From Hormiphora californensis (Eukaryota; Animalia; Ctenophora), in assembly GCA_020137815.1 (NCBI GenBank), contig CM035360.1, positions 496,001 through 560,000 on the forward strand: a DNA stretch of 64,000 nt, given 5' to 3'. Numbering within the stretch: position 1 is the stretch's first letter; the number at the start of each line of letters is the position of its first letter. Shown here one piece after another: positions 9,995 through 64,000 of the stretch. The translations under genes and the position numbers were made by a program. The notes beneath the pieces were generated by a model, which did no database searches, had not been told where the DNA came from, and saw nothing but the letters and a program-made list of their open reading frames with translations.

Positions 9995-10789
9995 TCTCGA
10001 GCGTGACCTGAGGGGGGAGGAAATGGGTGTTAGAGAGGGTGTTAGGGGATCTGGAGGGAGAGGAGAAGGGGTGTTATAGAGAGAGGGATATGTGTGTGTA
10101 GGGATGATTATTAGAGAGAGGACCTGGGGAAAAGAAGGGTGTTAGGGTGCCGCTCCTAACACGGGCTGGAAAGTGGGAATGGCCACACTGCTATAACACA
10201 CGTCTATACTATACTACTAGCTAGGATTTCTATATTGGAGACAGGATCATGAGCGGGGAGGGGAGGGGGGCAATAAAGAGGGCTGGATTAACTTGTGAGG
10301 GGGCTGGATTAACTTGTGAGGGGGCTGGATTAAATTGTGAGGGGCTGAATGATAGACACACAGACAAATCTACACACACATCGTGACACGCTAAAAGTAA
10401 TGAAATGAAACACGCACACTTGCAGGTATTACATCTATAGCTCATACCCCCCTCATTTCTCTCTATCTCTATTTCTATCTCGCTACCCATCTCTATACCT
10501 CTCCTTCGCTCTTTATCCTTTCTCTATCTCCCTCTAGTCTATACCTCCCCCTCTCTCTATTGATCATGATCACGCTGCCCCAACACACAAAACAGCACAG
10601 AGATCTAGTAATGATTGTGTATTCGTACAAGCTATACACACCTCTAGTACACGCAACTATACACTTTTGCTCTAGTACACGCAACTATACATCTGCACTG
10701 TTTAAACTCTCACAATATAATACGGCAAGCTTTGAAGAAAAAAGGTAGCATAAAATCAGGAAACGTGCATACATGGTTTCATTCGGGCA

Positions 10790-20451: not shown

Positions 20452-33534
<13,083 letters not shown>

Positions 33535-33923
33535 ACAATAGATAGACTCTAGTAGACAGTAGATAGAGTTGTACATATATTGAAAAGTCTCAATCCATTC
33601 TGAAATCAAATACAGAATACAGTTAATATTCTTTTTTTCAATTTTAGTTTATGTAAAGTAGATAGTCTGTTGAAAATGTATTGCATATTTTATGAAGTTG
33701 TTACAGCTGTGTGTGTTACAACTGTGTAGTTTTTAGGGAAAAGACCGAATTGATTGATCAGTGATCAGTGTAAAATATCTCTGGTTGGATTATGACTTTT
33801 GTTGAGCAGTTATTTAAAGAAAAGTGAAATGTTAATTGTGATTAGGTTTTAACTTTGTTTTATAACAACGTTTTTCCATTTGAACCTTGTTGGGGGTCGG
33901 ATCGGGGTCAAACAAACATATTA

Positions 33924-34677
33924 GGGCGCGCACAGACTGTTCATGCGTGATCATGTCCATAAGTGGGCAAGATTTTGATCAAGTCACGCAGACTGATCAA
34001 GCTTGATCATCTGATCAAGCTTGGACAGTAAAAACTGAAACTTATTCATACCTACGCGAAAACCACTGTACCCGACTAATTTTGATGCTCTAAATCACGT
34101 AAGCTAGTTTTCAAATCCTTCGGAGGTCGGGAATGTGTCCTAATTGGGCATAATTGGGTCTAATTGACCCCACTTACAACTTGTTACCTGGAAATGACGT
34201 GAGCGCACTTTTCCGACTAATTTTGATACGCTGAATCACATAAGCAAGCCCCCAGAGGTCGGGAAATGCCCTAATTGAGCAATTAAGGCCAATTAGATCC
34301 AATTATACTCAATTAGGACACTTTCCCGACCTCTGGGGGCGTGGAAAAGTTGTTTATGTGATTCAGCGTATCAAAATTAGTCGGAAAATTGCCCTCACAT
34401 AAGCGTCTATTATTTCCAGTTTTAAGTGGGGTCAATTAGACCCAATTATGCCCAATTAGAACACTTTCCTGACCTCTGACGGATTTGAAAACTAGCTTAC
34501 GTGATTTAGAGTATCAAAATTAGTCGGGTACTGCAGTGTTTTTCGCTTTGATATGAATAAGTTTCAGTTTTACTGTTCAAGCTTGATCAGATGATCAAGC
34601 TTGATCAGTCTGCGTGACTTGATCAAAATCTTGCCCACTTATGGACATGATCACGCATGAACAGTCTGTGCGCGCCC
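33924..34677. mobile_element. foldback MITE, Harbinger-like termini
   Basis: GGGCGCGCACAGACTGTTCATGCG...CGCATGAACAGTCTGTGCGCGCCC is palindromic over most of its length. Flanks are TTA/TCA. Confidence 0.85.
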
Positions 34678-35893
34678 TCACTGCAGAGTGCAGCTGTTTG
34701 GTTGGTTGGTTGGTTGGTTGGTGAGAGCGGCTGGTGAGAGCGGCTGGTACAGTTTGGAGCCTTTGGAGCACGTTCTAAACTGTTTTGTTGGGTGAATCAC
34801 TAGCCTGATCTCCTTACTAAGTGAGTATACCCATGGCAAAACGCCAAAACAATTATCATACCGTCTGCCTAGCATCATACGTCTAATTCTAGGCTATTGT
34901 TTGGCCATGAGTATGAATAATGACACATTTATAGCCTAAAATCTACAATATGGCCCCATCTCAAGAGATAGAAAACCACTAGAGATCCTAAGCCCGTTTT
35001 GTCTGAGTCTGCAGGCAGCTTGGTTTATCATCTGTCCAGAGTCAATTGACTCAAGACAAGATCAAACAAAGCACGGCCCTTTAATCATCTCAGATTTTGT
35101 CTTTGAGGCATGGTCATTACTCATTATATGGGGCATCCAGGTACAAACAGCTGGCTGCATTCGGTGCTTTTAGAACTGCATAAATGATAAAATAATAATA
35201 ATAGCAGCATTTCCAACTTTCTGTATAAAATACCACTTGTATCATTGGATAGAGGATGCACCTGTCTTTTCTATCTTTTCTATTTCTATCTCTTCGCGAC
35301 AGCTCGCATGTCGATCGTTGTTGGTAGAGTGCCGCAGAGAGTTGATATATCTGTTCTTGACTGACAAGTCACCAGTCCCCCCTCTTCCCCCTGTCTGGCG
35401 CCGCGACCCATACAGCCTGCACCTGGTCCTTGTATCACTTTTTTTTGACTTTTAAATAGTTGACAATCTCGTCCCCCTCGATTTCTGATCCAGCTCCTAG
35501 GAGGAGGGACTACATGGGGGCCCTGACCTGGCCCCTTAATCTGTGAGGGGGGCGGGTCAAGCTGCGATTAGAGAGTGAGCTGGGGCTCTATTCAGTGACT
35601 CCGCCCCCTCTCTGTGATCACCACATGGGGCCTTTTAAGCCATAATATACGGTTTCTTAATCATTGGTCTTGCATTAGTCCCTTTCTCTCCCTTATTATA
35701 CCTCTCAACTCATCTCTCCCTCTTCTATAGAAGATAGAATTCTATCCTTCTTTGACTCTGACCTCCCTAATCATCGCTCTTTCTTCTAGGGGGTATATTG
35801 TGCAATCCCTCAGATCATGATCGAAGCCCCTTCGGCCTTCGACAGTCGACAGCTAACCCACTCTAGTAGCGTTCGACCCTCTGTTTGAGTAAA

Positions 35894-38211
35894 ATGTTGG
35901 TATTGATTCTTGTTCTGCAGTTGATCTTAACTTGGGACTCCGTGTTTTGTCAAGGTAAGTAACAGGTGATCATTCCCTGGTTTGACATTTAGTTGTAAAA
36001 CTCGTGTTTTAATCCCCACATTTTGTATCACTGATTCTCCCTCAGTAATGCAAATGAGTTATTCTCTCCCTCCTCCTAGGAGACTACATCTCGGAGTATC
36101 GTGTTGAGTTCCCAATAAACAGCGACGATTACCTGTACATTGATTGTGGAAATCTTGCCAGCGCTACCCCTTTCCAGAGCTTCTACCTGTTGGACGCTGG
36201 TTGGGCGTGTTATGCAACGAATGGTGATTACCTGTTAGATCCGGTTAAACAGGGCCAGATTGATGAACTCACTACTACGAAGTTCAAGACATATTGTAGA
36301 ACTAAACAGAATGGTTGTGAGATCTGGAAGACGGATTTGGAGGCCATTAAAAGTTCGGCTGGGAGCTGTGCTGACAATGATGTTTTTTCTGTTGCAGTTG
36401 TGAGGTATTTCTGTGGAGAGAAATTCAATCAAACAGGTAAGAGTCACATGACACAGTACAAATATTATCTTGATTAAGGTAAGAGACAGACATGATCTTG
36501 ATTCAACTAACTGAAATTCAGTTCTGCAGAACTTACAGAACTTACAGAATTTTGTTATTATCTTAGTTAGGGGGATAAATACCCTAATTTAGTCACGCCG
36601 CGACCCTTTTTGTGTTCACGGCAAGACCCGCAACCCAGCTCTAATATTTTATTTCACGCTCTGTGAGGGTTTGGTAAATCAATACAACCCAGTTTTGACA
36701 TGAGTTCAATTTCCAGAACTATTTGAAAGCAAGATGATGTATGGTGTTGATTCTCAGCCCTCTATCGACACCCCACTACCAAATGCGGCGGAGACTATCC
36801 TCGTGTTCAAACAAGACGATCTCAAGGGAACTTTAACGTTTAAATTTGCAACCACCTCAACATATGAAGGTAGAGTTTGAATCCATTGGGCCATTGTTCA
36901 TAACTACTAGAAACTATTTTGTAGGCCACTCCCTCGCTTCTCCCTTTTCGAAAACAACATGTTTCTCTCCCCAATTATTATACTGATCCTGCATGCACTA
37001 CTCAAAAAGTTTTTTCTCCAATACAGTATTGGCGAGTTGGAACACTAATGTTTCTCTCTCCAATACAGTCTTGGCGAGTTGGAATACTAATGTTTCTCTC
37101 TCCAATACAGTCCTGGTCAGCTGGGATACAAAATCGGGAAAGATATACATTGAACGAGAATCTACTGGATTGACGGGAGTTGTTGAAACATGTCATGAAC
37201 ACTATGTTGATGGGGGTACTGAACTATTGTACTTAGTGTTTGTACTGGTAACTACCAGTGGCGCTCCATATCTGGGTCTTTACTCTGAAACAGGTACGAA
37301 TATTATTGTGGCAGATTTTTCGGCACTTTTTCTTTTACGGGCACTATGTAATTTTCTCGTTGATCCTCGGGAGTGACGTGCTATAAGTCTTTGTTCTCTT
37401 AGTTAAAGTAACAAACTCTCCCTGCATTGTCCGCATGTTTCAAGGCATATTAGGGGGGAGACACACTGAGGTTGGTCGCGCGCGTTCAACTCTCATTGAG
37501 AGTCTCTCAACCGCGTGAAACACACTGAAGTTTCGCGGTTTGAAGTTTCGCGGAAAAGTTCGAAGTTTCGCGAAACCCCATTTTCGGCTGAGAAATCATT
37601 TGTAAGGTGCTAACTTATTTACTGGTACATCTCTCGAGGTGTCCTTTGTCCATACCGAGTCAATTTCACCGTTTTTAAAATTTTTGGTGAATTGGGACAA
37701 CTGTGACCGGATTAGCCAAAAATTTCAAAAACGGTGAAATTGACTCGGTATGGATAAAGAACACCTCGAGAAATGTACCGGTAAGTAAGTTAGCATCTTA
37801 CAAATGATTTCTCAGCCGAAAATTGGTTTTCGCGAAACTTCGAACTTCGAACTTCAGTGTGTGTCGCGAGGTTGAGATTTGAACGAGCGCGCTCAACTTC
37901 AGTGTGTCTCCCCCCCTACCCTTGGTATCGAAGACACACTCTGTTTAGGCTCAGGTCGCCGGGCGACCTTCGCGCGCGCTGGCAAAGGGTAACTTCGTAA
38001 CCAAATATTACCCCTACAGGTGATCAACTTTGGTCAGGTGTGTGTGACAGTGGTCCTCTAGCTGCACAAATAACTGGATTAGTGGTGGAATTGGGAGATT
38101 TGACAGATACTAATATGAATGCCGTGAAAGTTTTCTACCCACAACAAACAACTGTCCCTACTTCACAGCCACCGGACCCAATACCGCCTGATCCTATAAC
38201 ACCTCCTACAG
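35894..38211 (+). CDS. secreted protein with SUEL/galactose-lectin-like Cys domain and Pro/Thr-rich linker (exons 35894-35954, 36080-36436, 36717-36869, 37111-37293, 38020-38211); may continue into the 43.7-50.2 kb exons
   Basis: Signal peptide MLVLILVLQLILTWDSVFCQG. All introns are phase 1 and in frame. Cys spacing IDCG...KTYCRTKQNGCEIW...GSC...VVRYFC resembles SUEL lectins (domain call tentative). Confidence 0.7.
37451..37918. mobile_element. foldback MITE in intron
   Basis: TAGGGGGGAGACACACTGA ... TCAGTGTGTCTCCCCCCCTA with long internal inverted arms. Confidence 0.85.
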
Positions 38212-39678
38212 GTTATTAAATTGTTTTATTAATTAACAACTGCAACTAATTAACGATTGATTAATAATTATGTAATTAATAGTTAAGAAATTCTTAATAA
38301 GAATGCTGCATGAAAACCTGTGCTGGTAAATTTATAATTTTTGGTAATCGGTACTACCCTGTCTGGATCAAAACGGGGTCTGGAACCGCCAAACAGATCC
38401 TCTATTATGGGTTAAATTCTGGGATAATGCCTGTCAAACATCATCAAATTATTAATCAAGATATCAGAATCCCAACTCTCACCCACCCCGATCCTATGTG
38501 TGTGTGTCAAGTTCCGCTAATGTTTCAGATCTCTCACAGTTTGTCCAGTATAGTTTCAGGTGTGTGATCCGGTCCCCACCCTGATAATATCCCTGATGTT
38601 ATCTAGCTACCTTGAGATAACACTGATACATGATCTACTGAACATGCAGCAGCTCTCTGTAGCAGTTAGTTATTGTAGCGTGCTGCAGTGTGTGTGATTT
38701 CCTTGTATCTTGATCGCAGCTAGTCTGTTTAGGAAGTGTTGTGTGAATCTGCCTCAAATTGCAACAATTGTTGTTTCGTAACTATATGAGCTCACTGGTA
38801 GTGTGTAGGGTTCCTTCACAGGTTCTTTCACAGTCTCCACTCGAACTAAGTCTAAATCTATAATAGTCGACATATAAATAATAGTCGACATACCTATATA
38901 TAATAAGTGAACTAATGTAACGACAGACGGGCCGGATATGAGAATACTTGGCACTCTCAAACTGACAATGTCTACAAGCTGTCACCTGCATTGAGCGAGG
39001 GTGACTGCAGCCCTCTTTAGGCCCATTGATCAGTTATGATAGAGGAGATCAGAGATATCACTAGCTAAACGGTGTCCAGACTATTAGCTATAATATATAT
39101 CACTGATCAGTGACTGTAAACTCCAGACTATTCAGTGGGCCTGGTTTATCTAAGTCTAATCTACATATCTAAGTCTAATAGTCGACTAATGTAACGACGT
39201 GCAGGCCGGATATGAAAATACTTGGTTAATTGTATGAACCAAGTCTGGACTGTTCTCTTTAGCCCATTGAGCGAGGGAGGGGATCAGAGATATCACTAAC
39301 TAAACGGTGTCCAGACTATTCATGATTAGGGTTGTCGAGTAAGGGGTCAACAAGATTAAATGGGAGGGTTTACAAGCTGTGAGCTGCATGTCTCGACTAT
39401 TGTCAACAATAATAATGACACGAAGATCTGTACACAGACCTGCAATCACCCCTTGTAGGAACAACAACCAATCAGAACTCGTTATTTAGGTCACGTGACT
39501 GGTTATCAGCCAATCAGGGACCAGTATTCTGTACACAGACCTGCAATCAGACTAATCCAGCCCTTTCAATGAGTTGTTAGACCTAGACTGACACAGCTTC
39601 TTCAATATCTTGTAGGTTGTTAGACCTAGACTGACAGTAGTTGTTGGATCTAGTCTAAATAACACCTCAGTAAATAAT

Positions 39679-40712: not shown

Positions 40713-41894
40713 CTGTAGCTCTGTATTCGGCTAGGCAGCTCGAATGAATCTGAGAGAGGATTCGGGGGTCTGAGATAGCCCCTTAATTCTAGGTCTCGAC
40801 TCTCGAATAAATCTGAGAGAGGATATAAGTATGGTTTCCCCCAACAATGTTCACCTTGTTTTTACGTGCGTAAAATTTACGCAATAAATAAAACACTGCT
40901 GCAGAACTGTACTGCAGCACTCAAAGACTTCCTGCAAAATTGTTGTGCTCAATATTTAGTTTCCAGACCCCCCTACGTGGGTGGGGCATAGCGTGGTATT
41001 AATCATGCTCGTGCAGAATAGAAATCATACATATAAGGTCAGTTAGTTTTATTCTTCAAAGATATTTTCCACGCCTAATTATTTTCTTAATCATCCACCC
41101 AAATAGTCTTTGAAGTTGCAGTTGAACAGTCTAATTGAAGTTGCAGGAATTTGTGCAGCAGATGGAGCTTAAAAAGAAACCAAAATCAGTGCGAATCTTT
41201 AGTTTTGTGTTTCAAGCTTGACAAGATAGTAAGGAATTTTCTCTTTCAAAGTTCTTAAATTTTAAGAGACATTTGTCATTTTGCTTGTTTGGATTCTACA
41301 TGTACCCTGATCTTGTCATGTTCTAACCCTCCTTTACATGTGTAAACAGATCAGTCCAGCTAGGCAACCCTGATCAGGGCCTGATCCTGACTGTTTCTAA
41401 TTCACCCTTCCTGTTAGAAAGAACTTCAAGTTTACTCTACCCTGATTCCTGCAGAATTCAGAATTGATGTTTAGGGTGAAGTCGTCAAGAGATTTTATTA
41501 ATAGTCCTCCACTCAACATATTTGAGTCAATGCAAGGTAGTTTAGTGCTAAAAATAAAGGTAGGGGGGTTGTTAAGCAAGGGGCAGGGAGGGGGGTTGGG
41601 GGGGGGGGGCTGTTAAGCAAGGGGCAGGGGGGTGCTAGAAGCAGCTCTGCGGAAGAGATCGGTAGAAGGATAGACCTCACACCCCACTCAACATAGTTGA
41701 GTCAACGCAAGGCCTAGACCAGGTCCAGTCGGCGGTGCGGCAACGATCGGTGTGAAAGCTTTGCCGCCCTAACAATTGGGAGAGAACTAAGAGACGAGAG
41801 ATGAGTGAGGAGACAAAGACGAGGAGAGAAGGAGAGGAGAGAATGGGAGCGAATAGAGAAAGAGACGAGAAGAGAGAGCAGCCATGAAATAATA

Positions 41895-43710
41895 GGGGGT
41901 TTTAAAAAAAAAAAACCCCCAAAAGGGGGGTTTTTTTAAAAAAAAAAACCCCAAAAAAAAAAAAAAAAAAGGGGGAAGGCAAAAAAAAAGGGGGGAAAAG
42001 AAAAAAAAAAAAATTTTTTTTTGGGGGGGAAAAAAAGGGGGTTTAAAAAAGGGGGGGGGGGGGGGGAAAAAAAGGGGGGGAAAAAAAAAAGGGGGGAAAA
42101 ATTTTTTTAAAATTTTGACCCCTTTTTTTTTTCCCCCTTTTTTTTTAAAAAATTTAAAAAAAACCCCCTTTTGGGGGGGTTTTTTTAAAAAATTTTGGGG
42201 GAATTAAAAAATTTTTTAAAAAAAGGGGTTTGGTTTTTTTAAAATTTTTTTTTAACCTTTGGGGGGGGTTTTTTTAAATTCCTTTTGGGGGGGGGGTTTT
42301 TAAGAAAAAAGGGGGGGGTTTGGGGGGAAAGGGGGGAAAAGGGGGGGGGTTTTTTTTAAAACCCCGGGGGGGTTTTTTTTTTCCCCCCCGGGGGGGGGTT
42401 TTTCCCTTTTTTTTTGGGGGGTTTTTTTGGCCCCCCCCCCTTTTTTTTGGGGGGAAAAAAGGGCCAAAGGAAATTTTTCCCGGGGGGGCCCCCCCCCCGG
42501 GGGGGAAAAATTTTTTTTTTTTTCCCCCCCCCCCCCGGTTTTTTTTGGGTTTTGCCCCCCGGGGAAAAATTTTTTTTTGGGCCCCCCGGAAAAATTCCCG
42601 GGGGGGGGGAAAAAACCCCCCCTTTGGGGGGGGTTTTTGGGGGGTTTTTGGGGGGGGGGAAAAAAATTTTTTTTTAAACCGGGGGGGGGGAAAGGATTGG
42701 GGGGGGGGGGGGAAAAACCCGGGGGGTTTTTTGGGGGGTTTTTTTTTTTTCCCCCCCCTTTTTTAAAAGGGCAAAAAAATTTTGGGGGGGTTTTGGGAAA
42801 AGGGAGAAAGGGGGGGATAAAGGAAAAAAAAGGGGGAAAAAAAAAATTTTTTTAAAATGTTTTCCCTTTTTTTTTTTAAAAAGGGGAAGGGGGGGGGTTT
42901 TTGGGGGGGTTTTTTTTTTTTTTTTCCCCCCCTTTTTGGGCCCCCCCCCCCAAAAAGGGGGAAATTTTTTTGGGGGGGGGGGGGGGAAAAAAAAAGGGGG
43001 GGAAAAAAAAAAAAGGGGGAAAAAAAAAAGGGGGGGAAAAAGGGGGGGGGGAAAGGGGGGGGAAAATTTTAAAAAAAAATTTTTTTTTTTGGGTTTTTTT
43101 TTGGGGTTTTTTAAAAAGGGGGGGAAAAAAGGCCCCCCCAAACCCCCCAAAAAAAAAAAAAAAAAAAAAACCCCCCCCCCCCCTTTTTTTTTTGGGGGGG
43201 GGGGGGTTTTTTTTTTTCCCCCCCCCCCCTTTTTTTTTTCCCCCCCTTTTGGGGGGTTTTCCCCGGGGTTTTTTCCCCCCCCGGGTTTGGGGTTTCCCCC
43301 CAAAAAAAAAAGGGGGGGGGGGGGGGGGGGGAGGGGGGGGGGGGGGGGTTTGGGGGGGGGGGGGGGGGGGGGCCCCCCCCCCCCCTTTTTTTTTCCCCTT
43401 TTTCCCCTCTCTCCCCCCCCTTTTTCCCCCCCCCTTCTCCCCTTTCCCTATGTCATTACAAAAAATTTTTTTTAAAGGGGGGGAAACCCTCGCCCCCCGG
43501 GGGGGGGCCCCCCCCCAAAAAAAAAAAAAAATTTTTTTATTTTTTTAAAAAAAAAATTTTCCTTTTTTTTTTTTTTCCCCCCCCCCCGGGGGGGGGTTTT
43601 TAAAGTTTTTTTTAAAAAGGGGGGGGTTAAAAATTTTTTAAAAAAAATTTAATAATACCTTTTTTTTTTTGAAAAAAAATTTTTTTTTTTGGGGGGAAAA
43701 ATTTTTTTCC
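41895..43710. other. low-quality homopolymer-smeared sequence (probable assembly artefact)
   Basis: Almost entirely alternating homopolymer runs. Confidence 0.9.
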
Positions 43711-44430
43711 CAATGTGTCATCAACAAGGACTTCCGTCTCCACAGCAACAGGTAATAATAACTTTGCGGGTTTGAGCTCCCATTTTGGTAGCATATGGGT
43801 ATTAATAACTTTGCGGTTTTGAGCTCCCATTTTGGTAACACATGGGTGTTAATAACTTTGCGGTTTTGAGCTCCCATTTTGGTAGCATATATGGGTGTTA
43901 ATAACTTTGCAGTTTTGAGCTCCCATGTTTTGGTAACATGGGTATAAATAATTTTGCGCTTACTTTCGCTCTTGATCATCAGTGTCTGCTGTGACTGATT
44001 TCATTTTCTTGTCATTCGTATATATTTAGTCTCTTGCTATCTCTTGTTATGATATTGTGATATTTCGACTGTTATAGCAACTTCTGATCCTACTAGAATT
44101 ATCCTGCAAGAGGTCTATCCTCATTCCAGAAATACTTCGTGGCGCGAGGCTATTTATGGAACGCCCTCCTTGGTCCAAACAGTAATTGATTCCAAAGTAC
44201 CGGCCCTCATGCCCATTAGTTAATATATATAATCAATATTTCTATCTATATTTACTCCTTGGAGCCTATAAGATGTTAATATAAAGTTCCTTTACCCCCC
44301 CCCCCCCAATTAATTAACCCCCCCATTATTTAACCCCTCAATTAATTACCCCCTCCTCAGAGAGTAGAGTTACAGCACGATTATTACAACCCCGAGGAAC
44401 CTCAATTAATTACCCCCCCCCCCTTCTCAG

Positions 44431-47400
44431 AGAGTAGAGTTACAGCACGATTATTACAACCCCGGGGAACTTCCCAGTGTTATCCAGATCAGATCAAGAT
44501 ATTAGGGGAGTGTAGAGAACTACCCTGTAGAAACGGGTATTACCCAGTAGGGCGGAACTGCTACCGTGAGTCGTTCGATCCCTCCTTTAACCTTGTTGAA
44601 TTGACGTTATTATAAAACCACCATCTTTCTCTCTGCACAGGGTTCCCCAACCCGTTATCACCATCTCCCCTACAGGGTGCCCCTCGGGTTGTGCCCTCTG
44701 TACAGTTGATGGTATCTGTACAACCTGTAACCGGGACCTGGTTCTGCACATAGGACGATGTGTAGCAGCCTGTCCGAGGAGGTTCAAGGAAGTAATTTCT
44801 GAAGGCCTACCAATTGTTCGGTTATGCGTGAAACGAGGCACATCCGGTAAATAATACTTAGTTGTTCTCGCTCAGCTTCTTTTTTATGATAGCTTTTTCT
44901 CTCTCCGATCTCTATAATAGGAAGTAGGAACTGTTTCTCCAATGACATGTCCCTCTCTTTATACAGTGTCGACCTGCAAGATTGGATCCTGGTCAGAATG
45001 GTCCCCGTGTACGGAGGGTATCAAGTTGAAAACCAGGAGAGTAGCCCCGACACCTACCTGTGCAGGGGTAACTCCCATCTCTTATACTCGCTGTGATGCT
45101 GCTGAACCAACAACACAGACAGGTGGGTGTGATGGTGATGTGGGTGATGGTGATGTGGGTGATGGTGATGTGGGTGATGGTGATGACAACATTTGATTCA
45201 ACTTAGGTGTCATGACAACAGGTGTCATGACAAGATTTGATTCAGCTTAGCTTTAGGTCCCATGACAACAGGTGTTATTACAACATTTCTAGTTTTTGTC
45301 ATGATAACCAATAGTTGATTTAGCTATGTCGCGTCGGAGTGAGTGAGAGAGAGACTGTGATCCACGGCCGACAGGCCCAATGCTAACGACCAGAGTAGTA
45401 GTAGTCTGTTATCATGTATTCAGTATTCACTCAACTACTAAATCAATTACTGGCTGAGTACGCGCTGCATATTATTATAGGTACTAAAAGTTGTCTGCAG
45501 GATAATGAACATTATAGGGGTCTCGACCATGTCTTGAAAATTTAAGATGGCTAGACCCCTGGATCTGAAATTTTCCACTCCTCTCCCCTCTTTACCCTCC
45601 TGTCAGACCAATGCTCTGACAGTGACCCCTCATGTTACCCTCCAGCTCTGGCCCTCTCCCTCTCCCCAGGATCTAACAGTTCCCCCCCCCAGGTTCCCCA
45701 CCGTGTACTGATGAGCTATGGTCAGACTGGGAGTATGAGAACTGTGATGACTCCTGTAACTGGACAGGGAGGAGGAGAAGGAGGAGGAGGAGGCGGTTCT
45801 CTAATAACCCACTAGGATACAATAGTGGTTGTGATGGTTCAACTGAGGAGGAAGAATTGGAGCCTTGTCCCTGTGGGATGAAACGTGAGTTTTAGTAATT
45901 TAGCTTGCTCCTTTACATTCCTGATGATTTACTATTTAGTTGAGTCACCTGACACTGTGTCCGTAAAGTATGAACAATACAGCGTGATATTCTATCTTTA
46001 TACGACTGAGGGGGACCACATACAGCACCGGTGCGAACTCCAGAACGTCGCACCACATACTGTCGGTGGAAACTTCAGTACAGTGACGCTCCAGTTGCTA
46101 AATTGAAACTGACATCAGTATCTGAAACTGATGTCAGTTTCAAACTTTGTAACTGGTCCCGCTCCAGTTGCTAAATTGAAACTTACATCAGGTTTTTGAA
46201 ACTGATGTCAGTTTCAAACTTTGTAACTGGACCCTGAGTGTATGTGGTGCCTCTTACTGAACAATCAATAAAAAACCTTCAAAACAAGCTAAAAACACGT
46301 AATTTTTTGTGAAATATCTTCCTCTCACTAATACCGAACTCTCTCTACCTCCTTTTCTCTCTCTTGTTATGTTTATCTCCACTTATCTCTCTCTTATCTT
46401 TCCCGATTGCAGCACATATTTTCTCGATATGTCGGATAATCTCGCCCTTGTTCTAGGTGTGGCCCTTTCTGTCGTAGTGAGAGTGCGTGCGCCTCTTATT
46501 GGTTGCTGTGGTGTGGGTGTGTGTGTGTATTGTGAGATGCAGGTCTGTCATTGGCTAGTGCGCGCACGTGACCCCCACGTGACCTTTCAGTTCAGTACGA
46601 AGAGCACATACAGCACCGTACTGATCTTTTCTGAGCTAAGCTCACGTGAGATTGTGTACTGATAGTCCCACCGATATTTATCAGTAAGAGGCACCACATA
46701 CGGCAGTGCGTACTGGAGTTTGCACCGAAAGTGTTGTATGTGCTAGTGAGAACTGAAGTTAGAGGCACCACATACGGCGGTGCGAATTTCAGTACAGTGC
46801 TGTATGTGGTCCCCCATACGTAGAGGCTAAATTCGGATCGTGTCTGCATCCTGACCTGCCTGGTTGTGTCTGTTAAAGTAATTTTGAACTATCACGTATT
46901 ACGACATAGGAATGCGATCAGGGTAATTTCGGAACTCAAAGTGATTGATTTGTCTCGTCTTTCTATTTGTGTTCCGGATTGTAAGACCTCGATTTTATTG
47001 TCGGAACTGAAATAAAAGAAAACGGGTATTATGATTGGATCATCATTTAAAAACAAGGAATCATTAACCAACTAAACTAGACTGCACTATCAAAGATCTT
47101 TGTGTAACTGCAGAATAGACTGGGAATTCATGTTTTTAGTAAAATTGATCCCTCCCCTCGTACAAGCATCATTTTATGAATCATGGTCATATATTCCAGC
47201 CCTGATCATCTCTTTCCTTGTCTCTTAGGCAAATGTTTCATCTTGATAAGTAACTTTTTGACCCACCATCACTCACTCCCCCGTCAACAATTAGACAAGG
47301 AGGATACGTATCTGATATCGGTATCTCAATTACAGTTTCAAAATGAGTCATGGATCAGGGATCCCTGTCTGTTTCTTTCTCGGTTCTCTTACCGGTTCAG

Positions 47401-50156
47401 TTAACATATCTCTCACTCCCTCCGCACCTACCGCAGACTCAACTGACTTTTTTGCAGAGGCTCACTCACAAGAATCGCTCTGCAGAACCCCCCCCCCCCC
47501 TTGACTCACTGATCCTAATTCCTATCACTGCCAATCCCTCTCACTCAGAACCCAAATATTTGCACCAAGTATTATTTATTGACCACTCCCATATCATCCA
47601 CGACCCTATCAATCCTTGCTGTTACCCAATACGATCTAGGTTCTTGGGTGCCCCTGCCCCTGCCCTGGGAAGGGGGGACCTATAATTATCAAGCTCTTCG
47701 TTTCCCTTCCCTATAATTATAAGGCCTTACCAAGTCCTCCCTAGGCCTTAGCTGTCTCTCTCTCTCTCCCCGTTAACCCCCTCTAACCCCGTCTCTCTCT
47801 AAATTCACTCTAACCCCCTCTAACCCCCTCTTACCCTCCCGTAAACCCCCTCTCTATACCATCTCTCTAACCCCATCTCTCTCCCTCCTAACCCCTTCTA
47901 ACCCCCTCTCCCATCCCTCTAACCCCCTTCTAACCCCCTCTCACCCCCTCTTACCCTCCCGTTAACCCCCTCTCTAACCCCTCCCTCTAACCCCTCCCTC
48001 TCAAAAACCCTCCAACCCCCCTCTAACCCCCTCTCCCCTCTCTTTTTTCTCTAACCCCCACCCCTCAGCGGGGGGAACTCAGAAATGAGTTCTTCGTGCC
48101 AGCTGAGCTCTTCAAGCTCAGTCCCGTTGCCGTGGGCCTGGTTGGCTGATGGTCCAGTGATTACGGTCAAATCACACCGGCTCTCTCCCCAAGTACGGGG
48201 AGTAAACTTTGCCAGAGACCTTGCCGGACTCAATTATGGCACCGAGCTCTTGCAGTGAAACTATACCAGTTGAACTGATAATCTCACCCCCGCCAGTAAC
48301 TTTGTTACACATGGCACCGAGCTCTTGCAGTGCAACTGATCCCAGTTGAACTGATAATCTCACTTGAAATAGGGTCTATCCCTAGGTTGAGTAAACGGAA
48401 TTTATTAAATTAAATCCCAGTTACTAAGCCTACTTAATCGCGGTCGCTGATGACCATTATGAATCAGCACATAACCTCCATGATAACAATGGCTAGACTA
48501 CCGGGACATTGCCGAGAATATTCTCACTCCCGACCAAACACTCGACCTGATAAAACTCACCTAACTTACAGCCAGATGCAACCACCCCTAACCATCCTGA
48601 TCTGAAACAGGTAACAGAGTCGAGACTGTTACCTAGGAGGGACTACACACATGCACATCTACCTTAGGACCCGCGAGTAATGGGGCAGGTCTGGGACCAC
48701 TCGGCCACCCCGCCTCCTTAGGCAAGTATTAAATCCGCAAAATGCACACCACTGGGGGCTGATACTTGCGCAATGCCTCACAGTGTTACTTTAAGTGTAG
48801 ACGCTTAACCGTGCAATATAAGTCTAAGAAATTAGACTTTTCCGGACCTCCTGGCTGTATGCAGATCTGTGTACTAGCGGTATCGACCCAAGGCCTAGAG
48901 TGTGATAAGATTTGTCAACCGACACAGGCCTCACGGGCTGTGAGTTATCGCTGTGGCAAATTCGGAAGACCCACCTACTTCTACAGCTCCTTGCAGCAGT
49001 AGCAACCGAAGACCAGCCAGGGAGGCAGGTAAATTTCACCCATTGTCCCAACATACAAGACACGCTGGTCTCTATTAAGCCGTGAATCAAAACTCTTCAT
49101 GTGGTGCCGGAACAGTTCGAGGGAAATGTGGAGCTTGCTCTGCAGAACACCAGGACTGAACCGGAGAACACCAACACTGTCCCTTTGTGTGGAGGGTAGT
49201 GGCGTGGAGTGATTATAATGGAGGTCGGCTGTCGACCTATGAAGGGGCAGCACAGTGGGCGGAATGATGGGAGGTGCTAAACACACACACACACACACCC
49301 CCTCTTACCCTCCCGTTAACCCCCTCTCTAACCCCTCCCTCTAACCCCTCCCTCTAAAAAACCCTCCAACCCCCCTCTAACCCCCTCTCCCCTCTATTTT
49401 TTCTCTAACCCCACCCCTCCCCTTTCTAGGTCTGTGCATGTGGGAGGGTTGGAGTGAGTGGGGAGACTGTGATTCTTTTTGTGGGTCTGGAACCCAAACC
49501 CGGACCAGGGCCAGCTTGAACGGGGAGTGTGCTACACAGACTGAATCTAGAATCTGCGAAAACAAACCATGTACAGGTAATCGATTGAAATTAACAATAG
49601 TTAACACATGATCAACTTGGATATCAAATCCCGGAAAGGAAAAAGGTTTTGTACTACAAATTTTCAATTCATTTCAGTAAAGAAAGAACCACTAGATATA
49701 ATACTGACCACCCATCCCTTCCCTATAGATGTGTGTAATGATAAACTGTTGGGCTCATGGTCCGCCTGGTCCACGTGCTCCAAAGACACGTGCACCAGAC
49801 AGCGTGTTAGACTGGGCCTCTTTCACCGTGTTGAATTATACTGCGGAAAGGAACACCTGGTGCAGGAGAAATCTTGTCGGACTAGAAACTGCCCCCGTGA
49901 GTTTTGATGGATTTAATTAATTGAGTTGCTGATTATGTTGTGGTGAACACAAACAGTTCAGCAAATCGATAATAACAGTTATTGATTGGTGATGGTACCT
50001 AATTAACACTAATTATCTCCACTAGGTGAGTGCCGAGTAAGTGGTTGGAGTGGTTGGAGTGAGTGTAATGGCCGGTCGAAGTACCGGACACGTGATATAA
50101 TCCAAGAAGGGGACATGTGTCCAGAACTGTACGATTCAATACCATGCACCAGCTGA
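44431..50156 (+). CDS. furin-like Cys-rich + 5x thrombospondin type-1 protein, R-spondin-like core (exons 44431-44565, 44676-44846, 44967-45122, 45693-45884, 49430-49576, 49729-49896, 50026-50156; further upstream exons near 43711-43751 and 44078-44181)
   Basis: CYPDQIKILGECRELPCRNGYYPVGRNCYRCPSGCALCTVDGICTTCNRDLVLHIGRCVAACP, then WSEWSPC, WSDWEYENC, WSEWGDC, WSAWSTC, WSGWSEC repeats. All phase-1 GT-AG introns. Stop TGA at 50154-50156. Confidence 0.85.
46010..46815. mobile_element. TIR non-autonomous element in intron
   Basis: GGGGGACCACATACAGCAC / GTGCTGTATGTGGTCCCCC termini, with internal CACCACATAC repeats. Confidence 0.7.
48067..49295 (+). mobile_element. putative retroposon-like insert (hairpin-rich 5' end, (CA)n 3' end) between 125-bp direct repeats
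   Basis: 47942-48066 is repeated at 49296-49419. Several stem-loops at 48070-48230. Confidence 0.5.
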
Positions 50157-51579
50157 GAGAATAACTACTCAATGTCTCCCCCTGCGGGGCGATATTATCG
50201 AGATACGATATGATCTGGATCAAGATATGATGATGGTATGTACCTTGGCAAGAAATAACACGTGCCCAGCCAAACAGTGTGGAGCCCTAGATCACACGTG
50301 GTAATAACAATAGTTCTGGGTACGTGACATGTGGTAAAGAGGATACCGTGTAAAAACAAAGACAGAAATTCAGAAATTGTTGCCATGGAAACCTAAAGAC
50401 TCTGATCTTTCCCAGATAATACAGTGTAGATACACAGTTGCATGAAAAACCAAAATGTAGTATTACAACTCACGGAGTTACTTTAGGAACAAAACAAATA
50501 GAGTTTAGAAATACAAATAACAGATTTAATATAGTTCATGTGTTGATTTGACCATGTTAGATTTAATATATTGAGTTCTTTATTTAACTGCGATATAATT
50601 TTAACTGCACAATTAATTTACTGAAACGAACTTTCAGATGCAATAACACCGTTCCTTTTCACTTCTATTATAATTGACAACTCGTAAACTATCAAATTGT
50701 TGCACCTCTGCAAGAGTGCTGTCTGGAGATGCCGCGACCCGATCTAAGCGCACTATCAGACAGTTACAAATTGAGTGCAGGGGTGATCGCCAGACATTCA
50801 ATCACTTCCGGATTCAATGCTTCACCGCTCTCCTTCCCTTCCTCCCCGCTCTCCCTGCATTCTGTCGACAGCAGCCAAACAGATTGTCCATCATTCTCCG
50901 GAATCGACCCATGGTTTCAGCTGTCCTGCTGACCTGCTGCTATTAAGATATGAGTAAAGTTTTAAAGCTAAATTAGCGTAGCTACTAAAATAAACCATGC
51001 ATATAAAATTGAAAAAAGACACGCGGCTGGTAGAACTATGAATAGTGAAAACCCGGAACCAAACAGCAACTAGGTAGGTGTTTGTTGAATGTGTCGTACT
51101 TTCATCAACTGCCGCTGCAGATGTGTAAGTTGAATTGCTCCGGACACAGTGTCATGCGACTCGAGATGTGTAAACATGGCCCTGCTTTGTTCCGGTTTTT
51201 GCTTTCCGGAAATACTTTGTTTACACATGGTTTTAAACATGTTTATATAGTTTTACACGTGGTTTTTGATTCAACCAGTCACACAAAAGTTGCCCGGATC
51301 AATACATGACATGTTATAAGACACGGTGTTTAGTTTGAAATATTCAAAACTAATTAACTAGAATTATATACTTAGCAACAGCTACACCGTGGCGGCTAGT
51401 TTATAACGCATTCTAACTTCTGTCATTCAATCGGCTTTGGGTCCATCGCAACCTATTCTCGCACGACGTCGATCCCACTCAGGTATCAATGTGCAGGCCA
51501 ACGATCGCGGCTTTGGATTATTGATACTCCATACTGTAAGCCAGTAGAAGTCCGTAAACGAATTCTAAATATCATGATA

Positions 51580-52659
51580 TTAGATATTAGTTTCCGGTAT
51601 GTTCTTATTGTCTTCACAGCGATTCCTGACATCGACTGGCACAACAGCTGCTCTTCTCGCACTGTGTTTATCGTTTTTAAAAACAGAACCTCTACTCATA
51701 GCGATATAAATTATTGGATTCAAGAATGAGTTCAATGGCGCTAGGACATTATAAGTGAAAAATAGCAGTATCATCAGACTAAAAGATCTACTCTGCATTT
51801 CTAATTCAATAGATGCTGCACTCAATTGATCCTTGTTTTTAATAATCAGTTGATCACCCACAAGCACACAAATCATATTAAACAAACTGAGACCGTTTAT
51901 AAATAGAACTCTAAGTGTGCTACCAAGGGACCGACCACTGCTGTTTTGAACTGGGTTCAACCACCGTTGGAAAAGATGCCACACTGTCATTGCTCCACAT
52001 ACGACACCAGCGCTTAGGAACACCCAGCTTGGCACAAAATAAATATACTCCAGACTCAGAGAAGAGATATAGAACTCTGATATATGTAACCCATTCTGAG
52101 GAAAACACACTTGGCAGTAGTTTACAAACACCGACTCTTTTAAAATGTAACCTGCATAAAATGAATAAAACCCTTGTAATAATGTCATGATACCAAAACA
52201 TAGGAAAAGGGAACCGAAAAAAGTTTTTCGTGGTATCTCCCTAAAGGGGAATTTTATCTGTAAGAATCTCGCTACTGTAAGATAGCTAGTAATGATAAAC
52301 GGAGCATCATAGAGAAATTTGTATGTAAAGGAGTAAATTAAGCATCTTTGCGTAACATTTCGATTCATGTAGTAATAATATTGATCTTCACATATGTCTG
52401 ATTGCGTAATGTCGTTAAAGCAGTTTGGGTCTTTTTGTTTCCAAAGGCCGACAGCTAGTCTAGTACCGATGAAAGGACAGGCGAAGAGATCCACAGCGCC
52501 GAGCACAAGGTAAAGGTCTCGTGCGAAGGATGAGTTTTTCCAGTAGTTGTGTCGTAGTACTAGGAAATTGAGAGGAATTCCAATTACAGCTAGCAGAATG
52601 AAGAAGATCATCAGTGGAAAATCTGGAAATGAAGTTCCTCCTTCACTAAAAATTGCCAT
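51580..52659 (-). CDS. single-exon rhodopsin-like (class A) GPCR
   Basis: 359 aa with seven hydrophobic segments: GIPLNFLV (TM1), LGAVDL (TM2), TVARFLQIKFPF (DRY-like), NSFLNPIIY (NPxxY). Confidence 0.88.
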   Translation of the reverse strand: MAIFSEGGTSFPDFPLMIFFILLAVIGIPLNFLVLRHNYWKNSSFARDLYLVLGAVDLFACPFIGTRLAVGLWKQKDPNCFNDITQSDICEDQYYYYMNRNVTQRCLIYSFTYKFLYDAPFIITSYLTVARFLQIKFPFREIPRKTFFGSLFLCFGIMTLLQGFYSFYAGYILKESVFVNYCQVCFPQNGLHISEFYISSLSLEYIYFVPSWVFLSAGVVCGAMTVWHLFQRWLNPVQNSSGRSLGSTLRVLFINGLSLFNMICVLVGDQLIIKNKDQLSAASIELEMQSRSFSLMILLFFTYNVLAPLNSFLNPIIYIAMSRGSVFKNDKHSARRAAVVPVDVRNRCEDNKNIPETNI

Positions 52660-53682
52660 TTCTAAATAGCTAGTTTTTTATCACTGGGGAATAAAAATAA
52701 ATTAAACAAGAATTATTGCATTATTGTTTTCTCAGTATTACTGCAAAATAGACACAGCTCGTCCTAATTGATAATCCATTAGGACGCTGTGTTATGTCTC
52801 AGTTCACCAATTAAGCAAATATAATCCCTGGCCTATGTGTACAATCCATTGGATTATGGGTAGTGAGAAAAGGAACGGAGGGAGCACATACTGAATCAGC
52901 AGTAGAGATTGTTACTGGGAGATTGGAGAGAGCTAATGGGACTTAGCTGGCATAGCTAAGTTTAGCTTTTATACATTGGGAGAGGATATGGGAGACGTGG
53001 AACATTCTTCGGGAGAGCATACCGAATCAGCAGTGGAGAAACTAGAAATACTAGGCAAACTAGAGAGATAGAAAGCTATAGCTGTAATATTTCAGCACAC
53101 ATGACCTCCCAGTTACCTCCCCGGTATGGCCTAGTCCACTAGTTTATTGCACCATTTTGGGCCCTAGATTTTCTAATTTCTATCTGCTAGGGATGGTTGG
53201 GTGCTTGGCAGCGGGCTGAGGTACAGGTGCTGCGCCCGCCTGGATATGGCACCTCTGGTCTCTGCCCACCGGAGCGGGATGGAGAGAGAGTGTAGGGTCT
53301 GTTGGACGACATCTTTTGAGACGCATAATTGGTGGGGAAACTTGGCTTAGTTTCCCATTCCTGAGCGCCTAGCCAACAGGCCGTACTCGCGAAGGAAAAA
53401 CGTTACCTTGATCCAGACTAATTCCAAACTCAAGAATTTCTCAAAGGCAAAATGTTACACGGTCGCTTGTAGTGAGAAAACGGTAATGGAAAACGGAGAT
53501 ACAGTAAGACGACGCGTTATGCAAAGTGTGCGTCTCATTACTGTATTTCCATTACGGTAATGCGACTACAAGCAGCACTGATATGTAGTGGGACAAAGTA
53601 CAAACTCAGGATTTCTGATGTTGCACTAAAGAGGGTGACTGTTATATCACACTTCTAATAAACATGTACAAAAATTGTCAAA

Positions 53683-62747: not shown

Positions 62748-62836
62748 GAGCCAATCACAGGCCAGCATTTCTAATTCCTGGCCTCTGATTGGCTCGTTGA
62801 GAACTATGAGTTGTAGGTGCGGTGCGGCCTATATAA
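62748..62836 (+). promoter_or_regulatory. putative Pol II promoter: inverted CCAAT pair and TATA box
   Basis: AGCCAATCA (about 62750), TGATTGGCT (about 62786) and TATATAA (62830-62836), upstream of a Kozak-like ACAACCATG. Confidence 0.45.
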
Positions 62837-62870
62837 TAAGTGCCCACTGCACCTCAACTGTACCACAACC

Positions 62871-63854
62871 ATGATCTTTCTAGTTCTACTCATTGCTCTA
62901 AGTGCAGGGGATGAGGCCTCATCCTGGCCGTGTCCCGCGGGGTCATATTGCCCCACTTCAGACACAGTGAGAGAGTGCAATCCTAGATACTATTGCCCCG
63001 CTAACTCCACCCGTCAAGTCTTCTGTCCTGCTGGTAGCTTCTGCCCCGATCCTTCTGAGAAATATATATGTCCAACAGGTAACCATGGTAACCATGGTAA
63101 CCATGGTAACAATGTCTTCTTTTCAATCGGGGATCCGTAATTCTCCGTATAACAGTGCCGCGCTTGTTATTATAGTGGCGATGCCGTATTTGAAATACGG
63201 TAAGAAGACGCATACTTTACGTATCAGTGCTGCTTGCAGTCAAAATACGGTAACGCAAAATACAGTAAGGAGACGCGCACGGTGCATAACGCGCGGCAAA
63301 AAGTTCATGTGTCAGCACGTACTAGCGCCCTGATTGGTCACGGTTGCGCGTCGTCTTACTGTATCTTCGTTTTCCATTACCGTTTTCCCACTACAAGCGA
63401 CCGTGTAACGCGCAAGTGCTCATGTCAAAAAGTGCATTTTTTCAGCACTTCATAGCGCGTTGATTGGCCACGCTTGCGCGTCTTCTTACCGTAATTAAGA
63501 CCAAACATTTTTTCATTACCGTTTTCCCACTATCTACAAGCACAGTAGTAAGGTACGTGTTTTGCAGGCCACCTATAATAGCTCGAACTAGCTCCTCATA
63601 AAATCCCCCTCGCTTCGCTCGCGGAACTTCCATGTATATCTGCAGCCTGTGCGCGGCGCGTGAGCTAATGAAAGGATTTCTAATTAATATTCCCACTGCA
63701 GGTACATACTGTTATTCAGGCTCTACTGCACCAAGGAACTGCACCAATTCAAATGGTCGTGGATATTATTGCCCAGAAGGGTCAACAAGGCAGGACCGCT
63801 GTACTTCAGGATTTTATTGTCCTACTTCCTCTGAACAAATCGTGTGTCCCGCAG
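62871..63854 (+). CDS. secreted/membrane Cys-rich protein with CPxGxYCP (GCC2/GCC3, ephrin-receptor-like) repeats, first two exons, runs off window
   Basis: Signal peptide MIFLVLLIALSAG, then CPAGSYCP, YYCPANST, CPAGSFCP | YCYSGST, YYCPEGST, CTSGFYCP. Phase-1 introns. Confidence 0.8.
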
Positions 63855-64000
63855 GTAATATATAAGGGATGATAATTTTGTGTCTTGCAGTGCACCCATA
63901 GCTTCTCATAAAATCCCCCTCGCTTCGCTCGCGGAACTTCCATGTATATCTGCAGCCTGTGCGCGGCGCGTGAGCTAATGAAAGGATTTCTAATTAGTAA

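What the first reader, a model, noticed from the sequence alone, without database searches (positions are those of the whole stretch)
44431..50156. R-spondin-like FU-FU-TSP1 module in an apparently early-branching animal
Seen: splicing gives ...DQIKILGECRELPCRNGYYPVGRNCYR|CPSGCALCTVDGICTTCNRDLVLHIGRCVAACPRRF...LC..|..CKIGSWSEWSPC....KTRRV..., with each domain on its own phase-1 exon. Four more TSP1 repeats follow, one carrying nine consecutive Arg. Known: vertebrate R-spondins have this order (RQxGxC..CP.GYY...C.xC...C..C....C..C....LH.GRC...CP then C..SEWS.W..C...RTRR) plus a basic heparin-binding region, and potentiate Wnt via LGR4-6 and ZNRF3/RNF43. The two FU2 phenylalanines used for LGR binding are absent here (TVDGI) and FU1 is partial. 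Inference: an ancestral or convergent RSPO-like matrix protein, possibly LGR-independent, in a lineage where RSPO is not usually reported.
Basis: partly seen in the sequence, partly recalled or inferred. Interest (0 to 1): 0.8.

Follow-up and report, generated by a model that had tools for sequence, protein, structure and literature searches.

The report
Comb-jelly spondin with R-spondin-like head
This is a real gene shared by three comb-jelly genera, encoding a predicted secreted protein of one and a half furin-like repeats and five thrombospondin repeats; it resembles the Wnt booster R-spondin in layout but lacks its receptor-binding residues, so it likely works as a sugar-binding matrix protein instead.

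Summary
Seven exons (44431-50156, six GT-AG phase-1 introns) give half a furin-like (FU) repeat, one full FU and five spondin-type TSP1 repeats (TSRs), with nine Arg in TSR2. The window is from a Pleurobrachia-like ctenophore (88% identical to a P. bachei model). Full-length orthologues exist in Mnemiopsis and Bolinopsis (400-401 aa, hydrophobic N-terminus, all 38 window cysteines kept, 7 of 7 exons collinear). The window's own first exon was not found.

The R-spondin likeness is real: best PDB sequence and fold match (RSPO2, Z 6.9), and one intron sits where RSPO4's second intron does. Membership fails, though. The first FU1 hairpin and the long loop carrying the ZNRF3-binding Arg66/Gln71 are missing, the LGR Phe clamp is absent in all three species, and there are five TSRs and no basic tail. 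The FU part alone matches PCSK6 at least as well as RSPO.

Best reading: a ctenophore-wide matricellular spondin, probably built independently from phase-1 modules (0.6). Remote kinship with the RSPO ancestor stays open (0.3); no tree could be built. No expression evidence was obtained.

The parts
44431..44565 (+). Exon 1 of the visible gene: likely mature N-terminus plus the C-terminal half of a FU repeat (4 Cys, spacing C-x10-C-x4-C-x10-C)
   Evidence: AG acceptor, GTGAGT donor, phase 1; best match is residues 30-68 of P0006; no Pfam hit alone
44676..44846 (+). Exon 2: complete FU repeat (8 Cys, C-x3-C-x2-C-x5-C-x2-C-x10-C-x3-C-x17-C); TVDGI in place of the RSPO FSHNF clamp
   Evidence: Pfam Furin-like_2 E 1.9e-4, below cut-off; PDB best hit RSPO1 FU2, E 9.4e-6; spacing
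44967..45122 (+). Exon 3: TSR1, a 4-cysteine spondin-type repeat
   Evidence: Pfam TSP1_spondin E 3.8e-4, below cut-off; 4 Cys; joined to exons 2 and 4 in the P. bachei model P0001
45693..45884 (+). Exon 4: TSR2 with nine consecutive Arg from 45770 (five Arg plus an R-x-K-R motif in the lobate orthologues)
   Evidence: no TSP Pfam hit alone; best match is TSR2 of P0006 and P0024
49430..49576 (+). Exon 5: TSR3, the most canonical repeat
   Evidence: Pfam TSP_1 33.2 bits, above cut-off 21.6; PDB thrombospondin-1 E 2e-9
49729..49896 (+). Exon 6: TSR4
   Evidence: score 118 and 116 against TSR4 of P0006 and P0024; Pfam only E 0.57
50026..50156 (+). Exon 7: TSR5 (4 Cys) and stop; no basic tail, no anchor
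   Evidence: Pfam TSP1_spondin E 6.1e-7; C-terminus aligns with the ends of P0006 and P0024
41801..43800 (.). Homopolymer-run stretch, probably an assembly or sequencing artefact; the missing signal-peptide exon may be lost here
   Evidence: mean run length 2.1-7.4 bases in 200-base bins; no convincing ATG-hydrophobic-phase-1 exon among 23 loose candidates between 38221 and 44430

Best explanation
The gene encodes a ctenophore-wide, predicted secreted spondin-type protein (half FU, one FU, five TSRs) that likely acts as a matricellular adaptor, likely held on sulfated matrix or cell-surface glycans by the conserved Arg cluster in TSR2, and was probably assembled independently of R-spondins from phase-1 exon modules. 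Shown: the exon chain, the domain order, conservation in Pleurobrachia, Mnemiopsis and Bolinopsis, and the lack of the RSPO receptor-binding residues. Inferred: secretion (hydrophobic N-terminus of the orthologues; no later hydrophobic segment, maximum 19-residue hydropathy after residue 30 is 1.15 and 1.37), glycan binding, a protein-binding role for the FU tip, possible convertase cutting at the R-x-K-R motif or Arg run in TSR2, and independent origin. It would tether an unknown partner to the matrix rather than clear ZNRF3/RNF43.
For: Orthologues P0006 (Mnemiopsis KAL5248317.1) and P0024 (Bolinopsis XP_063691163.1, source name 'spondin-1-like') have the same 1.5 FU + 5 TSR layout. Arg cluster kept in all three genera. 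FU1 half has a 10-residue loop where RSPO1 has 18 residues holding Arg66 and Gln71; the best fold match covers RSPO2 only from residue 78. FU part alone: Atlas features rank an ERBB2 fragment 0.83, RSPO3 0.81, generic FU 0.79; by Atlas structure PCSK6 TM 0.70, a generic growth-factor-receptor cluster 0.67 and a ciliate/VSP-like cluster 0.65 equal or beat RSPO3 0.63-0.64 (all under the tool's naming bar). TSR1 alone: 3 weak PDB hits (C8 alpha, F-spondin), RSPO2 not among them. All exons are phase 1-1 modules, which shuffle readily (established knowledge). RSPOs are reported only from deuterostomes (PMC3937510 passages; PMC7239654 passage). Ctenophore mesoglea holds sulfated mannans and galactans (bioRxiv 10.64898/2026.02.02.702917 section 5).
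Against: RSPO is the top match whenever FU and TSR1 are taken together: Atlas 0.90 with 170 shared features, profile E 1.1e-5 collinear across the FU-TSR junction, Foldseek ranks 1-11, VIA Z 6.9 vs 5.0 for the next family. One intron position is shared with RSPO4. The five-residue FU2 loop has RSPO length, and a Lys sits at RSPO1 Arg70 in all three species. No binding, expression or localisation data. The TSR2 exon is net acidic overall. No tree was built.
Confidence: 0.6

Rival explanations
1. Remote homologue: the FU-FU-TSR unit existed in the last common ancestor of animals as a matrix protein. Ctenophores trimmed FU1 and added four TSRs; deuterostomes gained the ZNRF3 loop and Phe clamp and made it R-spondin. 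The ctenophore protein still would not potentiate Wnt.
For: Collinear match over RSPO2 78-181; same exon plan, FU1 | FU2 | TSR, as the five-domain, five-exon RSPO4 gene (PMC3532313 passage); phase-1 intron in the codon before the first FU2 Cys in both (RSPO4 c.268/269 and Cys91, PMC12226482 table passage; window); five-residue FU2 loop; a review calls the FU+TSR combination unique to RSPOs.
Against: Needs losses in sponges, placozoans, cnidarians and protostomes if the reported deuterostome-only range is right. Among 23 hits from 1.84 billion representatives only 1 (the Mnemiopsis orthologue) had a FU match. An intron at a module border is expected of any shuffled FU exon (own knowledge; PCSK5/6 and FRAS1 introns not checked). 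PCSK5/6 and FRAS1 FU repeats did not appear in the PDB hit lists, so RSPO's top rank there had few FU competitors.
Confidence: 0.3
2. Functional proto-R-spondin: the protein binds a ctenophore PA-TM-RING ligase through a divergent FU1 surface, is presented by sulfated glycans without LGR, and raises Frizzled levels.
For: Mnemiopsis has a near-complete Wnt pathway (PMC2959043 passages); RSPO2/3 can signal without LGR using heparan sulfate; conserved basic cluster; Lys at the Arg70 position and a conserved Gln three residues before the RSPO Gln71 position.
Against: No counterpart of Ser48, Asn51, Arg66 or Gln71; mutating the last two abolishes ZNRF3 binding and LGR-independent signalling. ZNRF3/RNF43 trace to the vertebrate base, with PLR-1 the earliest reported relative. 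Comb-jelly LGRs branch below the type A/B split (PMC4079206 passages).
Confidence: 0.07
3. In this species the FU-TSR exons are the tail of a longer gene that starts at the signal-peptide exon at 35894 and includes four further exons up to 38211, giving a lineage-specific fusion. This concerns the 5' end only and is compatible with the readings above.
For: The only strong signal-peptide-like exon upstream is 35894-35954 (hydropathy 3.23, GTAAGT donor). All upstream exons are phase 1, the last has a possible donor at 38211 after a Pro/Thr-rich linker, and no other good first exon was found.
Against: The upstream frame also closes on its own at a stop at 38217-38219, and the 38211 donor is weak (GTTATT). 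Both lobate orthologues put the signal peptide directly before the FU half, and exon 1 has about the right length ahead of its first FU Cys (15 residues vs about 13). No similarity between the 36082 exon and P0006. About 2 kb of unreadable sequence lies between.
Confidence: 0.2

Closest known systems
R-spondins RSPO1-4 (deuterostomes)
   Same: Secreted-type N-terminus (orthologues), FU repeats followed directly by a spondin-type TSR, one domain per exon, phase-1 intron before the first FU2 cysteine, five-residue FU2 loop, FU2 fold (Z 6.9, rmsd 2.2 over 65 residues, 31% identity to RSPO2), a basic cluster.
   Different: FU1 is half a repeat with a 10- not 18-residue loop; no Ser48/Asn51/Arg66/Gln71 counterparts; no Phe106/Phe110 (Thr/Ile in the window, Ile/Val in lobates); TSR1 has 4 Cys; five TSRs, not one; basic cluster inside TSR2, no basic tail.
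F-spondin (spondin-1) and other tandem-TSR matrix proteins
   Same: Tandem spondin-type TSRs (Pfam TSP1_spondin 90.5 bits over 5 stretches in P0006); the Bolinopsis record is named 'spondin-1-like'.
   Different: No reeler or spondin_N domain (none among Pfam hits; F-spondin's architecture is recalled); FU repeats instead.
FU repeats of PCSK5/6, ERBB domain IV, insulin-receptor family and ciliate/Giardia cysteine-rich proteins
   Same: Same repeat fold; PCSK6 TM 0.70 over 89 residues between predicted models; IRR Z 5.0, HER2/3 Z 4.7.
   Different: No protease, receptor or membrane domain; only 1.5 repeats, joined to TSRs.

Membership tests
R-spondin | Two complete furin-like repeats | tested here: not met
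   4 + 8 Cys in window exons 1-2; lobates have one extra N-terminal Cys only; Pfam PF15913 matches model positions 29-95 of 102, 19.2 bits vs cut-off 28
R-spondin | A TSR directly after FU2 | tested here: met
   the repeat has 4 Cys
R-spondin | Single TSR followed by a C-terminal basic region | tested here: not met
   five TSRs, stop right after TSR5 in all three species
R-spondin | FU1 ZNRF3/RNF43-binding residues (RSPO1 Ser48, Asn51, Arg66, Gln71) | tested here: not met
   first hairpin absent; loop 10 vs 18 residues; Ile at Gln71 (residues)
R-spondin | FU2 Phe106/Phe110 clamp for LGR4-6 | tested here: not met
   TVDGI in the window, IAYDV in both lobates (clamp)
R-spondin | Signal peptide, secreted | tested here: inconclusive
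   hydrophobic N-termini in P0006 and P0024; no signal-peptide predictor run; first exon not found in the window
R-spondin | Domain-per-exon gene with phase-1 introns at the same positions | tested here: inconclusive
   FU1|FU2 intron matches RSPO4 c.268/269; the FU2|TSR intron of RSPO and control FU genes were not available
R-spondin | Groups with RSPOs in a phylogeny | not testable with these tools
   no RSPO, PCSK5/6 or FRAS1 sequence was returned with an id by any search
R-spondin | Potentiates Wnt signalling | not testable with these tools
   needs a reporter assay
F-spondin / spondin-1 | Reeler and spondin_N domains before the TSRs (recalled) | tested here: not met
   full-length P0006 has only TSP and weak FU Pfam hits, and about 100 residues between signal peptide and TSR1, all FU-like
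TSR superfamily | TSP1 repeats with WxxW, Cys and Arg ladder | tested here: met
   Pfam TSP1_spondin 90.5 bits (cut-off 41) and TSP_1 53.7 bits (cut-off 21.6) for P0006

The most novel reading that the evidence does not exclude
The ctenophore protein descends from the same FU-FU-TSR gene as R-spondins, which puts the R-spondin scaffold in the last common ancestor of all animals as a glycan-bound matrix protein, long before it gained the ZNRF3 loop and LGR clamp in deuterostomes.
Probability: 0.3. Interest if true: 0.75.

Novelty: new variant of a known kind. Interest (0 to 1): 0.45.

Why it matters
R-spondins are described as the unique FU+TSR proteins and as a deuterostome invention (PMC3937510). 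A FU-TSR protein conserved across cydippid and lobate ctenophores is either an independent build of that layout or a trace of its ancestor. Either way it gives a testable handle on how a matrix module became a Wnt amplifier, and a candidate Arg-rich binder for the sulfated glycans of ctenophore mesoglea. It is not evidence that R-spondin signalling exists in ctenophores.

Tried and rejected
RNA: no RNA holder listed for 44400-50200. The one run offered (X1) laid 0 contigs on 43720-50400 and 4 short pieces at under 99% likeness on 30001-39600; uninformative. No whole genome is held, so ZNRF3/RNF43 and LGR partners could not be sought. No complex was predicted, since no partner sequence was available. 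Homologue searches: exon 2 found 1 of 3 candidates (P0001); the 36082 exon 0 of 284; P0001 5-171 against longer proteins 0 of 180. Metagenome scans: 0 of 599 pattern matches for exon 2; 21 of 117 for alignment A1, with no FU match better than E 0.05 in any of the 21 loci; frames were read for 9 of 21 and were generic TSR proteins. NCBIfam 0 of 7 proteins. Exon 1 alone gave only chance-level PDB hits. The AlphaFold2 model of P0006 is usable only for the FU region (block pLDDT 67-89 at residues 51-120; under 50 from 174), so TSR2-5 were not tested by fold. The model of the 36082 exon was too poor to search (mean pLDDT 45); my impression that it resembles a SUEL lectin domain is recalled and got no Pfam or PDB support. 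Alignments A2 and A3 misplaced exons and were not used further. Earlier findings of this scan: nothing. De Lau 2012 is not held. A possible exon at 44078-44218 has no hit and no counterpart in the orthologues; left out.
Full report
Observation. Three-frame translation and splice-site listing give seven exons between 44431 and 50156 on the + strand, joined by six GT-AG phase-1 introns into one open frame of 365 residues that ends at TGA 50154-50156. Exon 1 has 4 Cys, exon 2 has 8, and exons 3-7 each carry a WxxW TSR with 4, 6, 6, 6 and 4 Cys. Nine Arg start at 45770. Pfam gives Furin-like_2 for exon 2 (E 1.9e-4, below cut-off) and TSP1 families for exons 3, 5, 7 and weakly 6; exons 1 and 4 have no relevant hit. 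The first exon begins with an acceptor, so the gene's start is missing from the model.

Organism and orthologues. Exon 2 retrieved one protein, P0001, a Pleurobrachia bachei gene model. It is 135 of 153 identical to the window and joins exons 2, 3 and 4 in the same way; its last 59 residues match non-coding window DNA at 50705-50911, so it is the syntenic gene with a probably mispredicted end. The window is therefore a Pleurobrachia-like ctenophore, not identical to that model. A search of 1.84 billion representatives with P0001 gave 23 hits; 1 of 23 had a FU match: P0006, Mnemiopsis leidyi, 400 aa, clustered with a 401-aa Bolinopsis microptera protein named 'spondin-1-like' (10 of the 22 non-self hits were looked up). 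The window model aligns with these end to end (E 2.8e-63 and 4e-61; 38 of 38 Cys), every exon scoring best on its collinear segment and the true TSR order ranking first of 120. Both lobate proteins begin with a hydrophobic stretch placed directly before the FU half and have no later membrane segment. The architecture is thus conserved between Cydippida and Lobata. P0017 looks like a TSR1 fragment from a further genome.

The 5' end. No convincing first exon lies between 38221 and 44430; about 2 kb there is homopolymer noise. A separate five-exon frame with a good signal-peptide exon runs 35894-38219 and can either stop at 38219 or splice on from 38211. The orthologues favour a separate gene; a fusion is not excluded. 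RNA data were not obtained.

Likeness to R-spondin. Exon 2's best PDB hit is RSPO1 FU2 (E 9.4e-6). A ctenophore profile aligns with RSPO2 residues 78-181 across the FU2-TSR junction (E 1.1e-5). The ESM Atlas ranks R-spondin-3 first for P0006 25-175 (0.90, 170 shared features). The AlphaFold2 model, reliable only in the FU region, matches RSPO2 best by Foldseek (E 4e-4) and VIA-align (Z 6.9, rmsd 2.2, 65 aligned, model 54-123 on RSPO2 78-146; next family Z 5.0), a Z that the tool calls middling. RSPO4's second intron lies at c.268/269, phase 1, in the codon before Cys91 (table passage of PMC12226482), and RSPO4 has one domain per exon (PMC3532313 passage). The window's intron 44566-44675 splits the codon before the first Cys of its full FU in phase 1: the same place. 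That Cys91 is the first FU2 cysteine is my mapping from the RSPO1 alignment.

Where the likeness fails. RSPO1 has 18 residues between the two FU1 cysteines that frame Arg66 and Gln71 (alignment); the ctenophore loop has 10 in all three species, with Ile at the Gln71 position and Lys at Arg70. The preceding hairpin with Ser48 and Asn51 has no counterpart. These four residues form the ZNRF3/RNF43 interface, and R66A or Q71A abolishes binding (PMC3937510 section 16). The Phe clamp is TVDGI or IAYDV. LGR-independent RSPO3 signalling still needs the FU1 site (PMC7239654 passages). Taken alone, the FU part is generic: Atlas features put an ERBB2 fragment (0.83) ahead of RSPO3 (0.81), and Atlas structure puts PCSK6 (TM 0.70) ahead of RSPO3 (0.63-0.64). 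TSR1 alone does not list RSPO2 among its 3 weak PDB hits. There are five TSRs and no basic tail. [quoted passage not shown]

Mechanism. Most likely a secreted matricellular adaptor: the TSR rod, with the Arg cluster of TSR2 conserved in three genera, would bind sulfated glycans, as the RSPO TSP/basic region binds heparan sulfate; ctenophore mesoglea holds sulfated mannans and galactans (bioRxiv 10.64898/2026.02.02.702917, sections 5 and 6 read; supplements not seen and may list this protein). The FU tip would bind an unknown partner. The R-x-K-R motif in lobate TSR2 may be a convertase site (motif meaning recalled). All of this is inference. On origin I put 0.6 on independent assembly from phase-1 modules and 0.3 on descent from a shared FU-FU-TSR ancestor; the shared intron and collinearity keep the second alive, but module-border introns are expected under both.

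Literature. RSPO homologues are reported from vertebrates and some other deuterostomes (PMC3937510 passages; PMC7239654 passage; hemichordate r-spondin in PMC5786327 passages). The Mnemiopsis Wnt survey has 0 word-start occurrences of 'spondin' (PMC2959043, passages); the thrombospondin-superfamily paper has 0 of 'R-spondin' or 'furin' (PMC6526912, passages). Searches for R-spondin + ctenophore (9 papers), RSPO + Nematostella (9), ZNRF3 + RNF43 + ctenophor (1) and those listed no paper describing such a ctenophore protein; most were seen as listings only, the library is partial, and de Lau 2012 was not held. PMC9545775 and PMC4079206 (passages) report LGRs in early-branching animals, the comb-jelly ones below the type A/B split. 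PMC7521923 (passages) added nothing.

Verdict. Real, conserved, apparently undescribed architecture; a new variant of the TSR/spondin kind with an R-spondin-like head; not an R-spondin by five tested features (two full FU, single TSR with basic tail, ZNRF3 residues, Phe clamp failed; adjacent TSR met).

Noticed in passing
window 35894-38219 (+): Five-exon, all phase-1 frame with a clear signal-peptide exon, a 118-residue cysteine-bearing domain, beta-rich-looking exons and a Pro/Thr-rich end; no Pfam, NCBIfam, PDB or homologue hit. Separate secreted protein, or a 5' extension of the FU-TSR gene.
   Followed up: partly
window 6785-10141 (-): A 1119-codon uninterrupted frame for a kinesin-3 (motor, FHA, KIF1B domains) in an otherwise intron-rich genome; a CAP-Gly-like frame lies at 4981-5463 (-).
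   Followed up: partly
window 51583-52677 (-): Single-exon 365-codon frame with several hydrophobic segments and an NPIIY motif, probably a divergent class A GPCR (motif recalled); no Pfam hit. It lies tail to tail with the FU-TSR gene.
   Followed up: partly
window 47942-48066 and 49296-49419: A 125-base stretch is duplicated (97.6% identical) within the 3.5-kb intron 4, the second copy leading into the acceptor of exon 5; the 1.2 kb between may be an insertion.
   Followed up: no
window 44340-44400: A partial tandem copy of the acceptor and first 40 bases of exon 1 lies 70 bases upstream of the real one; a possible alternative acceptor or assembly slip.
   Followed up: no
window 30150-33540 (+): Multi-exon membrane-protein gene that looks like the C-terminal part of a TMEM63/OSCA channel (recalled, not tested); one small exon is tandemly repeated 4.7 times with a 70-base period at 31523-31854.
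   Followed up: no
window 62817-64000 (+): Start of a gene with a signal-peptide-like stretch and short CPxGxYC cysteine repeats; no significant Pfam hit.
   Followed up: no
window 10801-12400 and 41801-43800: Stretches of long homopolymer runs that look like sequencing or assembly noise.
   Followed up: partly
proteins P0007, P0009, P0010, P0020, P0023: Spondin-type TSR repeats in metagenome proteins from intron-free contigs; P0023 has them fused behind a weak phage-tail-tube Pfam match (E 2.5e-4).
   Followed up: no
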